A DNA stretch of 64,000 bases from Eledone cirrhosa (Eukaryota), in NCBI GenBank assembly GCA_964016885.1, contig OZ024742.1, positions 253,084,001 to 253,148,000 of the forward strand. Reading direction: 5' to 3'. Below the pieces are notes generated by a model, which saw only the letters and a program-made list of their open reading frames with translations, was not told the origin of the DNA and did not search any database. The translations under genes and the position numbers were made by a program. Positions 6,472-10,840 of the stretch are shown one piece after another. Positions within the stretch are counted from its first letter, which is position 1. Every line of letters begins with the position of its first letter.

Positions 6472-9400
6472 TAACATTATTCTAGAAATTAATTTAATTT
6501 AAATGTTAGTTAACCTATAAATTTAATTTAATTAATATTTTATTACAGATGAGAAAATATTATGTAATCATAAATTGTGAAAAACCTTTAAATGTTACTA
6601 ATATATACTCAGTAATTTAATTTATAGATTAATTTTAATTTATTTAAACCTTTTTATTTTTATTATAATTTTTTTTTATTATAATTCTTTTACAGATAAA
6701 ATATAACAAAATAATATCATGTATCCAATGACGGAGAAAGAATTTTTAGTATTATAGACCTAATTAATATACATTTTGGAAATATATTTATTATTTGGTT
6801 TTAGTTTTAATCAACCTAAAACTTTAATTTTAATTTGCTTAAAATTAGTATCCTTGTACAGACGAATTGCAGAATGTCATGTAATCATAGAATGGGATGT
6901 GTTTTGGATATATACCTAGTTAATATATTCTGTGCAATTTTTTGAAAAAGATATGTATATGTATATGTATATGTATATGTGTGTGTTGTGTATGTGTATC
7001 TGTATGTATGTTTATGTGTGTATATATGTATATATGTATATATATGTATATATATATATATATATGTGTGTATATGTATGTATATGTGTATGTGTATGTA
7101 TATGTATATGTATGCGTATTAATTTTGATTTTTATTTGCATATAATTATATTATGCTATTGATGAAATACAATATCTGCTTTATGTATTGTATACCTAAT
7201 TAACATATACTAATTAACGTATACTATTGAAATAAATATATAATTTTTAATTTAGTTAACATATAATTTATATGCTACTACCGATGTAATACTTTATTTT
7301 ATTTTTATTTGGGTTTCTTTTCCCTATTACTAAATTCATCTCCTAATATTGATACCATAACGTTATTAACTTTAATTTAGTTATAATGTAATTAATAATC
7401 TACTACTGTTTGACTTCATAATTCTGCTTCAAATATTATAAACCTAACTAATTTACACCTTAGAAATCAATATGTTGACTATCTTTGGTTTAGTTAACAT
7501 ATGATTAATGGTATACTTATTTATTTTGAGATGCATAGATTTCGTATTTCCTAGCACTGAAAATATGTAAGAACATACATTGAATTAAGATACGGAAAAT
7601 ATTATATGTTTCTTGAAACATATATTTACTTTGATCCCCTTCTCCAAACCCCCCCTTTCCCCCATACTATTATCATCTGTATTTGTAAGAGTCTATGTAT
7701 GAATATATGTGTAGGTAGGTGTATATATAGGTTTTGGTATTTATATCTAAATATAAAAATACATATATGAGCATGCAAATATGAATGTAAGATTGTGTGT
7801 GTATATATGATTGTACATACATATGTATGTATATATATATATATATATGTATTATATATGTATGTGTATGTGAATGTGTTGTATGTATATGTGTATGTAT
7901 GTGTATATATGTGTATGTATGTGTATGCTTGTATATATAGGAATATATATATGTGTATATATGTATGTATATGTATATGCGTGTATGTATGTATGTGTAT
8001 ATGTGTTGTGTATATATTTGTATGTCTCTCTATTTATATGTTTATCTTCGTATCTATGTGATATATGTGTGTGTGTGTGCACGTATGCATATGTATGTGT
8101 TTGTGTGTGTTTGTATGTGTGTGTGTATATATGTGTGTGTGCGCACACTCACATACACATATATATATATATATATGTGAGTGTGTATGTGTGTCTGTGT
8201 GTGTGTGTGTGTGTGTATGTGTGTATATATATATGTATATATATATATATGTATATATATATATATAGATATATATATATATATATATATATATAGGTGT
8301 CTATGTGTGAATATACGTCTTTATTCGTATGTGTGTATTTATGTATGTATATATTTATGTGTATGTATGTATGTGTATGTATGTATGTATATATATATAT
8401 ATATATATATGTATATGTATATATATATATGTATATTATTCTTTATTATTATTGTAATATAACTTATGTGTATATGTGTATAAGTGAGGTTGTGTATGTA
8501 TATATAATGTGTGTATGTATAAGAGTAATGAAATATATATATATATATATATATATGTGCATGTCTGTTTTTTATGTGTGTGTATATATGTATGTGTATG
8601 TGTATATATATATGTATATATATATGTATACGTGTGTGTATATAGATATATATATATATATACATGTGGGTGTTTGTATGTGTATTTATGGTGGTATGAG
8701 TGTGTGGATATATATGTTTTATATATATATGTGTGTATATATATATATATGTTTCTATGTGTGTGTGTATATATATATATATATATATTTATATATATAT
8801 GTATGTGTATGTGTATGTATATGTGTGTGTATGTATATATATGTGTGTGTATGTATGTGTGTATATATATATATCTCTATTAATGCGTGTGTGTATGTAT
8901 ATACATATGCGTTTTTTTATTATTATTTTCATTTGTATGTCTGAGTTTGGTGAGGTGGTATTGTTTTTTATGTGTATACACATATATGGAAGCGTATGTA
9001 TTTATTTATATGAGTATAAGTAGGTGCATATGTATGTATGATTATATATCTAATTCTATGTATGAAGGTACATCTATATATATATATATATGTACGTGTG
9101 TATGTAAGTTGTGTGTGTATGTATCTTTATGTCTATGTGAGTGTATATATATATATATATATATATATATATATATATATATATATATGTATATCGATGT
9201 GCGTATATGTATGTACATGTATGTACATGTATGTGTATATGTATGTGTATGTATATTTAGATGTATGTGTATGTATGTGTATATATATGTATATATATAT
9301 ATATATATATATATATATATATATATGTGTGTGTGTATATATATATATATATGGATATATATCTTTATTATCTATTTTTTATATATATGTGTATGTGTGT

Positions 9401-10157
9401 ATGTGTTGCGCGTGTGTGTGTGTGTATATATATCTTTTTATATGTGTATGTGTATGTTCGTGTAAGTGTATGTGTGTGTATGACTGTATATGTATGTGTG
9501 TATGTGTGTATGCGTAAATATCTCTATGTGCGCGTACATGTATGTATGTGTATGTATATCTGTATGTGTATGTACATTATATTATATTTATTATATTTTA
9601 TTGTTTTTATTTTTTTATTTTTCTTAATTTATAGATACATTTATATTAGGCAGTCTGCTCAGACAATCTAATACTGACCCCTCCCCCCCCTCCCACCTAA
9701 TTTCTGTATCTTGATCTTGAAATGTGTGTGCCAGTGTTTTATGTGAGTGACTTAATTTCTATGTGCTTATGATTTTATATCCACATCTATAAATGTGAGT
9801 GGGGGAGTGTGTGTGTTTGTATGTTCGTGGTTATGTGTATATTTATGCATATACGCGCATGTATGTGTGATTATACTGATATGTGTGAGTATGAAAAAAT
9901 ATATTTATATGCTTGACTCCATAAGTATCAATGCGCATCTTATCAGCGCATTAAGCTTACAGAGATATTAACCTTGAAATTTTGTGTTTGCATCCATCTT
10001 TTTAGTATGCGCATACAAATTATACACACATTATTGTAAAATATGTGTAAGGATTTTACATGTATATACACACACCAAACTGCTTTTAACCCTTTGTGTT
10101 TTCATTGGTCAATTTTGAACTGATATTTTGAATTGTTGTTATTATCAATAAATATAC

Positions 10158-10312
10158 TTCATTATTTCTGAAGACGGCGTATATATGTGTTAGGTATGTA
10201 TATTTAATCTTGATAATTTGTATAATTTTGTATAATTTTGTACATAGATCTGTTGAATATGCATACCAATTATAACACATATATACCCTAGAAACGATCG
10301 TTAAATAGTGAA
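10158..10312 (+). ncRNA. Hammerhead ribozyme copy (3' pLTR)
   Basis: Same sequence as 3547-3701 at offset 6611. Confidence 0.8.
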
Positions 10313-10840
10313 CTTTTTTTGTTTAATATAAGGAATTGTTTGTTCATTATTTATTTAATATTTTATATATATATATATATATATATATATATATATATAT
10401 ATATATATATATATATATATATATATATATATACACACACACACACACACACACACACACGTGGAAAAGTAAGAAATCAGAGAACAGACCGTTAAAACGT
10501 GTTTATTTAAAACAGCACCTACGTACGTTTCGCCCAGTTGGGTTTGTCAAGGGCATAAATAACCAAAAGTGTTACATTGCTCGGAAAGTGTTTTTGGGGT
10601 TAAGTTCACGTCATAATTCATTCTTCGCAAAAAAGGCGTGTTTTGATTTTGCAGTAGGTCAAGGGAGGTAACTCTGGCCAGTGTTAGGGCAGTCTTTCCC
10701 GGACACATTTTTTATCCGTTACAAGATGTGGCTACAACCTTACCATTGTTCCTGGGTGCTTTTTTTGCAGCGCCCTCCCGTCGGGGTTTAAAGCTTGTTG
10801 CAGGAAGATCCGGTACACGGTTTCACTCCTCATCCTTAAC

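What the first reader, a model, noticed from the sequence alone, without database searches (positions are those of the whole stretch)
6472..10366. A retroelement that carries and disperses kilobases of microsatellite
Seen: the Naiad-1 3' region is ~3.9 kb, much of it TA/TG/TATG mosaic. A 1.75-kb part (8611-10366) is duplicated at 1976-3755 almost base for base, differing mainly in (TA)n lengths. The cryptic simple sequence is therefore element cargo, not local slippage. Naiad-3 also has a TG/TA-rich 3' region (37780-38230). Inference: Naiads may seed much of this genome's low-complexity DNA and create their own (TA)n landing sites, a positive feedback that simple-repeat masking hides.
Basis: partly seen in the sequence, partly recalled or inferred. 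Interest (0 to 1): 0.75.

Follow-up and report, generated by a model that had tools for sequence, protein, structure and literature searches.

The report
Hydra retroelement carrying a microsatellite tail
A jumping gene of a known class (Hydra-type Penelope, not Naiad) carries about 2 kb of TA/TG simple-repeat DNA in its tail and has spread it to many chromosomes, but our estimate is that this supplies only about 1-2% of the genome's simple-repeat DNA.

Summary
The duplication (1976-3755 = 8611-10366) differs by three (TA)n length changes and one substitution. It is the ordinary pseudo-LTR of a Penelope-like element, which is Hydra-clade, not Naiad (RT before GIY-YIG; RWR, DKT, CxCx5C; hammerhead motif).

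The cargo claim holds. The TA/TG mosaic (42-50% of 3.9 kb) recurs colinearly at 94-98% identity on many chromosomes, often joined to the ORF. The 6.6-kb unit is over twice the length of listed Hydra elements. The mosaic probably arose inside this lineage: one sister-family copy lacks it, and it turns over between subfamilies while staying G-rich on the sense strand.

The genome-scale inference fails. 57 of 94 sampled ends carry no mosaic. The family accounts for about 1-2% of such DNA and about 0.6% of TA tracts. Self-landing happens (one clear nested insertion) but is rare (0 of 94 unbiased ends).

A sense-strand A>G excess hints at RNA editing but did not replicate cleanly. The scan had noted Hydra elements elsewhere in this genome; look-ups for this cargo were blank.

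The parts
1236..1281 (.). (TA)23 tract at the left edge of the insertion (target)
1279..1976 (-). Inverted 5'-truncated copy ending in the 137-bp tail; reverse complement of 3195-3892
   Evidence: one substitution
1470..1624 (-). Predicted type I hammerhead in the inverted copy
1976..3755 (+). Its 5' junction lies in an internal (TA)n tract
3547..3701 (+). Predicted hammerhead in the upstream pseudo-LTR
3756..3892 (+). Start of the unit; recurs as the 137-bp tail at one end of most insertions
   Evidence: its last 22 nt have 5,123 exact genomic hits
4047..6471 (+). Hydra-type ORF: RT (RWR, DKT, YRDD) then CxCx5C linker and GIY-YIG endonuclease (CxxC, N..CxH); split between two frames near 5580-5615 in this copy
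   Evidence: many other copies hold RT and endonuclease in one open frame
6472..10366 (+). 3.9-kb 3' region carried by the element
6947..7123 (+). Small TA/TG mosaic block
7791..9591 (+). Main TA/TG/TATG mosaic; sense strand T 48%, A 28%, G 20%, C 4%
8768..8800 (+). Internal (TA)n tract whose homologue in a copy on contig C21 holds a nested insertion of the same family
10158..10312 (+). Predicted type I hammerhead with 10-bp stem I and a 116-nt stem II arm; most short copies begin near 10161
10364..10460 (.). (TA)35(AC)14 tract between the 3' ends of elements 1 and 2
10458..14096 (-). Element 2: another, degraded Hydra-type family; 3' region about 0.4 kb without mosaic
36803..38740 (-). Element 3: 5'-truncated copy of a third Hydra-type family; T/G-rich stretch 37780-38230 conserved among copies

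Best explanation
This is a Hydra-clade Penelope-like retrotransposon whose 3.9-kb 3' region, about half TA/TG simple-repeat mosaic, recurs with the element on many chromosomes; the mosaic likely grew by slippage inside successive source copies and is likely a passenger. The window's duplication is the element's normal pseudo-LTR plus an inverted truncated copy. The RT is inferred to copy an RNA of the unit from its 3' end into (TA)n targets, so only copies that extend more than about 0.8 kb bring mosaic, about one in three. The internal (TA)n tracts can serve as landing sites but are about 0.6% of those in the genome, so the feedback is real but negligible.
For: SHOWN: colinear mosaic upstream of the terminal segment in most of 30 loci. 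ORF end plus whole 3' region colinear at 97-98% in independent loci on C12, C21, C22, C4 and two small contigs. 20 of 20 further anchor loci are colinear. All 29 distinct copies spanning ORF end to 3' end have 2.1-4.3-kb 3' regions with 0.7-2.2 kb of mosaic. Architecture (partial tandem, inverted 5' copy, tail at one end, TA targets) matches PMC8557442 sections 6, 11, 15. A sister-family copy (L199, ORF 86-88% identical) has a roughly 1.2-kb 3' region without TG/TA mosaic. The tree is a ladder, with the shortest mosaic (0.7-0.9 kb) in the most divergent subfamily. Subfamilies 96-98% identical at the ORF end are only 81-84% alignable in the mosaic, close to the 74-80% of unrelated mosaics. Share of the genome: 5,123 tail ends x 0.94 x 545 bp = 2.6 Mb, or 1.1% of about 235 Mb. 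None of 40 random 10-kb stretches held a mosaic-bearing copy. INFERRED: RNA intermediate, slippage origin, neutrality.
Against: The direction of change rests on one outgroup copy with a complete 3' region (L199) and on rooting at the most divergent subfamily. Every subfamily keeps kilobases of mosaic with the same strand polarity (TATATGTATA 3-22 vs TATACATATA 0-1 per copy; random DNA 84 vs 94), which neutral drift does not obviously require. A>G exceeds T>C on the sense strand in several counts. The 94 ends come from the first 91 Mb of one contig, 12 are cut at 7.5 kb, and exact-match anchors miss old copies, so the genome share is uncertain by a factor of two or three. Transcription of the mosaic was not shown.
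Confidence: 0.72

Rival explanations
1. The strand-polarised mosaic is written during the RNA stage. (UA)n tracts and fold-back transcripts form double-stranded RNA, A-to-I editing (or an RT error bias) turns UA into UG, reverse transcription fixes it, and slippage then expands the new TG units.
For: First set, 30 insertion events, non-mosaic segments: A>G 43 vs T>C 11 (p=2e-5), while G>A/C>T is symmetric at 23/26. A 3' G neighbour is favoured. Differences between two parts of one insertion are A>G 11 vs T>C 2. The A>G rate is higher in the 3' region than in the ORF (21 of 11,835 vs 7 of 15,194; p=0.001). In pure TA tracts, net G gain 12 vs C gain 3 (p=0.037). Internal tree branches: 50 vs 34 (p=0.006). 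Mosaic windows fold with 81-82% of bases paired (no shuffle control).
Against: Replication on 20 new copies: 9 vs 5 (p=0.18), and 1 vs 1 in pure TA tracts (alleles already seen were excluded). Element-3 family, 29 copies: no asymmetry (25 vs 31 per 10^4). A 5' G is not depleted as ADAR preference would predict (preference recalled). No hyper-edited clusters. On the tree A>T also exceeds T>A (35 vs 16), so the bias may be a general loss of A. The raw 29 vs 3 in TA tracts fell to 12 vs 3 once shifted Gs were removed.
Confidence: 0.17
2. The long UG/UA-rich 3' region is under selection, for example as an RNA structure or protein-binding platform that aids read-through, stability or template use.
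For: All 29 distinct full 3' regions keep 0.7-2.2 kb of mosaic with the same polarity while the letters turn over. The family succeeded despite a unit more than twice the listed Hydra length. Element 3 also has a T/G-rich sense-strand 3' stretch.
Against: Element 2, the L199 sister copy and the listed Hydra elements do without it. Subfamilies lose 0.5-0.6-kb blocks of mosaic. The mosaic is the least conserved part of the unit.
Confidence: 0.12
3. One reading: these elements are a main source of the genome's low-complexity DNA and multiply through their own landing sites.
For: One clear nested insertion in an internal (TA)n tract. About 2,000 copies reach the edge of the mosaic (2,053 hits, control 107). 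Very old, unrecognisable copies cannot be excluded.
Against: About 1.1% of mosaic DNA and 0.6% of TA tracts. 0 of 94 unbiased ends clearly nested, one ambiguous. 57 of 94 ends are 700 bp or shorter. 0 of 40 random stretches contain a mosaic-bearing copy although 7.9% of their bases are mosaic.
Confidence: 0.04
4. The duplication is an assembly artefact or a local tandem duplication unrelated to retrotransposition.
For: The window region also exists about 381 kb upstream at 99.8% identity, so this neighbourhood is duplicated in the assembly.
Against: The same sequence order occurs at dozens of unlinked loci with different junctions. The sister locus has the same pseudo-LTR yet differs by a 182-bp insertion, so it is not a plain copy of the same bases. 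The geometry matches published PLE insertions.
Confidence: 0.02

Closest known systems
Hydra clade of C-terminal EN+ Penelope-like elements (Craig et al. 2021, PMC8557442; e.g. Hydra-1_Obim, 2,507 bp)
   Same: RT followed by GIY-YIG; RW(K/R), DKT, CxCx5C linker, CxxC and CxH motifs; (TA)n targeting; hammerhead with the same core and cleavage-site pattern as several listed members; partial tandem and inverted insertions.
   Different: Unit is 6.6 kb against 'generally <3 kb' (27 listed entries run 1.1-3.0 kb). It has a 3.9-kb 3' region that is half simple repeat, a 137-bp tail rather than 30-40 bp, and a hammerhead stem II arm of about 116 nt.
Naiad clade (same paper)
   Same: Pseudo-LTRs, inverted 5' copies, (TA)n preference.
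   Different: Naiads have an N-terminal endonuclease, DKA, a CCHH motif and no canonical hammerhead. This element has a C-terminal endonuclease, DKT and a hammerhead motif.
Microsatellite seeding by LINEs (CR1-L3/AATAG in colubroid snakes, PMC6050309, passages read; RTE in Lepidoptera, PMC2887409, search listing only)
   Same: A retroelement spreads simple repeats that belong to its 3' part.
   Different: There the repeat is a single-motif 3' terminal array that drove a 75-fold genomic rise of that motif. Here it is an internal mixed mosaic upstream of a structured terminus, lost in most truncated copies and worth about 1-2% of such DNA.
Chlamys PLE families lengthened by tandem repeats (PMC8557442, passage and File S1)
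   Same: Penelope-like elements whose length is increased by internal or 3' tandem repeats.
   Different: Different clade; no TA/TG mosaic matching the element's own target motif was described in the parts read.
SaTar microsatellite-targeting MULE arrays (PMC5907723, abstract only)
   Same: Unrelated elements pile up in shared (TA)n tracts, as elements 1 and 2 do at 10364-10460.
   Different: DNA transposons in plants, described as non-nested.

Membership tests
Hydra-clade PLE | RT followed by a C-terminal GIY-YIG endonuclease | tested here: met
   Motif order in the window ORFs; one open frame with DKT, YRDD and YIG in many copies. Pfam gave no hit at E 0.01, so this rests on motifs.
Hydra-clade PLE | RWK-type motif and DKT in place of DKG | tested here: met
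   RWR at residue 54 and DKT at 132 of the RT frame; R for K is a small deviation.
Hydra-clade PLE | CxCx5C linker; CxxC and CxH around the conserved E and N; no CCHH | tested here: met
   CNCRNKTNC, CRLC and N..CNH found; one cysteine only between the IVY and YIG halves.
Hydra-clade PLE | Canonical type I hammerhead near the 3' end | tested here: met
   Core motif with 10 of 10 stem I pairs in all 13 distinct family variants, 7 and 8 in two sister copies. Stem II is far longer than in listed members. Rfam did not detect it. Cleavage is untested.
Hydra-clade PLE | Insertion into (TA)n | tested here: met
   76 of 94 tail ends are followed directly by TATATATA, and most others by a TA variant.
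Hydra-clade PLE | Short length (generally under 3 kb) | tested here: not met
   Unit 3756-10366 is 6,611 bp. Length is a description in the paper rather than a diagnostic trait; this is the variant feature.
Hydra-clade PLE | Placement in the Hydra clade in an RT phylogeny | not tested
Naiad | N-terminal GIY-YIG before the RT | tested here: not met
   The endonuclease is C-terminal.
Naiad | DKA motif, CCHH motif, no canonical hammerhead | tested here: not met
   DKT and a hammerhead motif are present.
PLE insertion architecture | Partial tandem forming a pseudo-LTR, inverted 5' copy, tail at one end | tested here: met
   tail is 137 bp.
Genome-scale microsatellite seeding (snake CR1-L3 type) | The element accounts for a large share of the genomic repeat class | tested here: not met
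   About 1.1%; 0 of 40 random stretches hold a mosaic-bearing copy.
ADAR-edited retroelement | Reproducible sense-strand A>G excess with ADAR context, seen in RNA | tested here: inconclusive
   Significant; not; no RNA reads examined.

The most novel reading that the evidence does not exclude
The mosaic is a fossil of RNA editing: the element's (UA)n hairpins are A-to-I edited, its own reverse transcriptase fixes the edits, and over successive source copies plain TA tracts become a strand-polarised TA/TG mosaic that is then spread to about 2,000 loci. RNA editing would thus write new microsatellite DNA into the germline genome.
Probability: 0.17. Interest if true: 0.75.

Novelty: new variant of a known kind. 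Interest (0 to 1): 0.36.

Why it matters
It shows a practical blind spot: kilobase-scale, apparently local simple sequence can be the heritable body of a young retroelement. Simple-repeat masking would cut its consensus short, and some published short Hydra consensuses may deserve a second look (untested). It also puts numbers on the landing-site feedback idea: it occurs but is too small to shape the genome. The family gives a natural time series of cryptic simple sequence evolving along a source lineage. If the A>G bias is editing, it would link RNA editing to the birth of genomic microsatellites.

Tried and rejected
1. Pfam found nothing for elements 1 and 2. Rfam gave only sub-threshold microRNA matches to simple repeats and no hammerhead. 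My first hammerhead scan missed the motif because it capped stem II at 60 nt.
2. Idea that insertion creates or expands the long flanking TA arrays: 14 of 94 flanks are 300 bp or longer, against about 2-3% expected from random DNA, but non-adjacent arrays in the same loci give 25%. G versus C interruptions in flanks do not follow element orientation (10 vs 7). Rejected.
3. Nested candidates L130, L175, L084, L120 were checked. L130 is separated by an assembly gap; L175 lacks the host's upstream half (ambiguous); the others are not nested. L251/L252 are truncated copies joined to a target array.
4. 5' junctions in internal TA tracts: 10 of 37 against 14% expected (p=0.03), but one of the 10 is the nested host and alignment ends are ambiguous in TA. 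Weak.
5. A>G asymmetry did not replicate in the second set or in element 3. No non-PLE control family was run.
6. Sequencing runs: no RNA holder listed. No reads were laid, so expression, editing and read-level support for the junctions remain open.
7. Paper searches found no report of a Hydra or Naiad element with a kilobase microsatellite mosaic, nor of editing-built microsatellites in retroelements. The library lacks most subscription journals and Repbase reports. Of the Craig et al. supplement I saw one search and part 2 of 59, so its consensus sequences were not compared.
8. Scan look-ups by words and by sequence were blank.

Full report
**1. The observation.** The 3' region 6472-10366 is 3,895 bp. 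An alternating TA/TG/CA mask covers 1,652 bp (42%) and TRF with period up to 10 covers 1,954 bp (50%). Forty random 10-kb stretches give 7.9% and 10.3%. Self-BLAST shows 8611-10366 = 1976-3755 at 98.15%, with three (TA)n length changes and one substitution.

**2. What the element is.** The window lies on contig C3 of a 3.0-Gb animal genome. An earlier scan note calls the host probably an octopus; I did not test that. The ORF runs RT first (RWR, DKT, YRDD), then a CNCRNKTNC linker, a GIY-YIG-type endonuclease, and CRLC and N..CNH motifs. These are the features given for the Hydra clade in PMC8557442 section 11. Naiads have the endonuclease first, DKA, and no hammerhead. A hammerhead motif lies at 10158-10312, with 10 of 10 stem I pairs in all 13 distinct family variants; its core and cleavage site match the pattern of several Hydra entries in the paper's File S2, but its stem II arm is about 116 nt. 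The layout (TA)n, inverted truncated copy, truncated tandem copy, full unit, (TA)n is the published PLE layout. So the duplication is a pseudo-LTR. This copy's ORF is split near 5580-5615; many other copies keep one open frame. Elements 2 and 3 of the window also carry Hydra-type motifs.

**3. Is the mosaic cargo? Yes.** The terminal 770 bp gave 1,781 candidates, the best 40 at 99% or more on many contigs, and most of 30 loci continue colinearly through 1.5 kb of mosaic. Independent loci hold the ORF end plus the whole 3' region at 97-98%. Twenty further anchor loci, 20 of the 40 I had selected, are all colinear, 11 over essentially the whole region. The unit is 6,611 bp; the 27 Hydra entries listed in File S1 run 1.1-3.0 kb.

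**4. Where the mosaic came from.** All 29 distinct copies spanning ORF end to 3' end (33 rows, four duplicates dropped) have 3' regions of 2.1-4.3 kb with 0.7-2.2 kb of mosaic. The tree of non-mosaic columns is a ladder; the most divergent subfamily has the least mosaic. Subfamilies 96-98% identical at the ORF end align at only 81-84% in the mosaic, near the 74-80% of seven unrelated mosaics, and share 13-117 of 589 informative 14-mers against 0-10 in random DNA. A sister-family copy from the random sample (L199, 86-88% in the ORF) has a roughly 1.2-kb 3' region without TG/TA mosaic. Element 2's 3' region is about 0.4 kb without mosaic. The simplest inference is that slippage built and rebuilt the mosaic inside successive source copies and retrotransposition spread it. 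This polarity rests on one outgroup copy.

**5. How much of the genome?** The tail's last 22 nt occur 5,123 times. I fetched the first 100 listed hits, all on C1; 6 were internal and dropped. Of 94 true ends, 57 are 700 bp or shorter, most starting near 10161; 32 carry at least 200 bp of mosaic and 26 at least 1 kb; the mean is 545 bp and 5 TA tracts (12 cut at 7.5 kb). That gives 2.6 Mb, or 1.1% of the genome's mosaic, and 0.6% of its TA tracts. A second anchor at the mosaic's 3' edge has 2,053 hits (control 107) and is present in 22 of 30 full copies; at up to 1.7 kb each this gives roughly 1.5-2%. None of 40 random stretches held a mosaic-bearing copy. Element 3's family is far commoner (ends in 11 of 40 stretches) but is mostly present as short termini. 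'Much of the low-complexity DNA' is therefore not supported.

**6. Landing sites.** On C21 a complex insertion of a 93%-identical subfamily sits inside a host copy's (TA)n tract equivalent to 8768-8800, with the host resuming on the far side. So self-landing occurs. In the unbiased set, 0 of 94 ends were clearly nested and one was ambiguous, as expected from a 0.6% share. Long TA arrays beside insertions are explained by regional TA richness and length-biased targeting.

**7. Strand polarity and the editing lead.** The mosaic is G-rich and C-poor on the sense strand in every subfamily. In 30 insertion events, isolated substitutions outside the mosaic were A>G 43 vs T>C 11 (p=2e-5) with G>A/C>T symmetric. 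The excess is stronger in the 3' region than in the ORF (p=0.001) and appears on internal tree branches (50 vs 34, p=0.006; tips 35 vs 27, p=0.07). Against it: 20 new copies gave 9 vs 5 (p=0.18) and 1 vs 1 in pure TA tracts; element 3's family shows none; the 5' context is not typical (ADAR preferences are recalled); A>T also exceeds T>A on the tree. No RNA reads were examined. I keep this as a lead at about 17%.

**8. Comparison with what is known.** Hydra elements and their TA targeting are known (PMC8557442: abstract, passages, sections 6, 11, 15, one supplement search and part 2 of 59). Microsatellite seeding by retroelements is known (PMC6050309, passages; PMC2887409, listing only). Tandem repeats lengthen some Chlamys PLEs. 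PMC13282606, PMC3124438 and bioRxiv 10.64898/2026.07.22.740005 (passages) and PMC5907723 (abstract) did not describe this feature in what I read. Eight searches found no Hydra element with a kilobase mosaic. Earlier scan notes agree that such elements in this genome are Hydra-type with long-armed hammerheads; look-ups for this cargo were blank.

**9. Verdict.** A real feature and a new variant of a known kind: an unusually long Hydra element with heritable, fast-turning, strand-polarised simple-repeat cargo. Interest 0.36.

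Noticed in passing
window 1-38330 and G000:C3 about 252.70-252.74 Mb (L031, L032, L222): The window region is duplicated about 381 kb upstream at 99.8% identity or more. The sister copy carries an extra 182-bp SINE-like insertion, with a short direct repeat at its ends, at the position equal to window 1612, inside the inverted copy's hammerhead stem.
   Followed up: partly
L085-L180; family positions equal to window 10161-10366 plus tail: Many short copies are fold-backs of about 550 bp that begin at 10161-10163, inside the 5' strand of hammerhead stem I: a strong preferred stop or a non-autonomous derivative.
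   Followed up: partly
window 36803-38740 (element 3): Ends of this Hydra family occur in 11 of 40 random 10-kb stretches, which suggests tens of thousands of copies.
   Followed up: partly
window about 10515-10560 (element 2, minus strand): Hammerhead-like motif with a variant core (apparent U3-A8 pair), seen by eye and not tested.
   Followed up: no
window 10364-10460: Two different Hydra families end tail to tail in one (TA)n(AC)n tract; element-3 ends also lie close to several family-1 ends (e.g. L121, L148).
   Followed up: partly
L199:1200-2420: Sister-family 3' region is C/T-rich and holds an internal duplication with two hammerhead core starts.
   Followed up: no
G000:C2 about 170.42-170.45 Mb and 281.13-281.14 Mb: Head-to-tail arrays of three to four family units, spaced about 6.1 and 6.6 kb apart.
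   Followed up: no
window 29394-34194: A different Penelope-like element (RT with C-terminal GIY-YIG) with an inverted 1.35-kb copy at 92% identity.
   Followed up: no
window 52420-52658 and 49086-49647: A 239-bp near-perfect palindrome and a 57-bp minisatellite.
   Followed up: no
young copies, family positions equal to 7791-9591: 5' truncation and inversion junctions lean towards internal (TA)n tracts (10 of 37 vs 14% expected), suggesting microhomology.
   Followed up: partly
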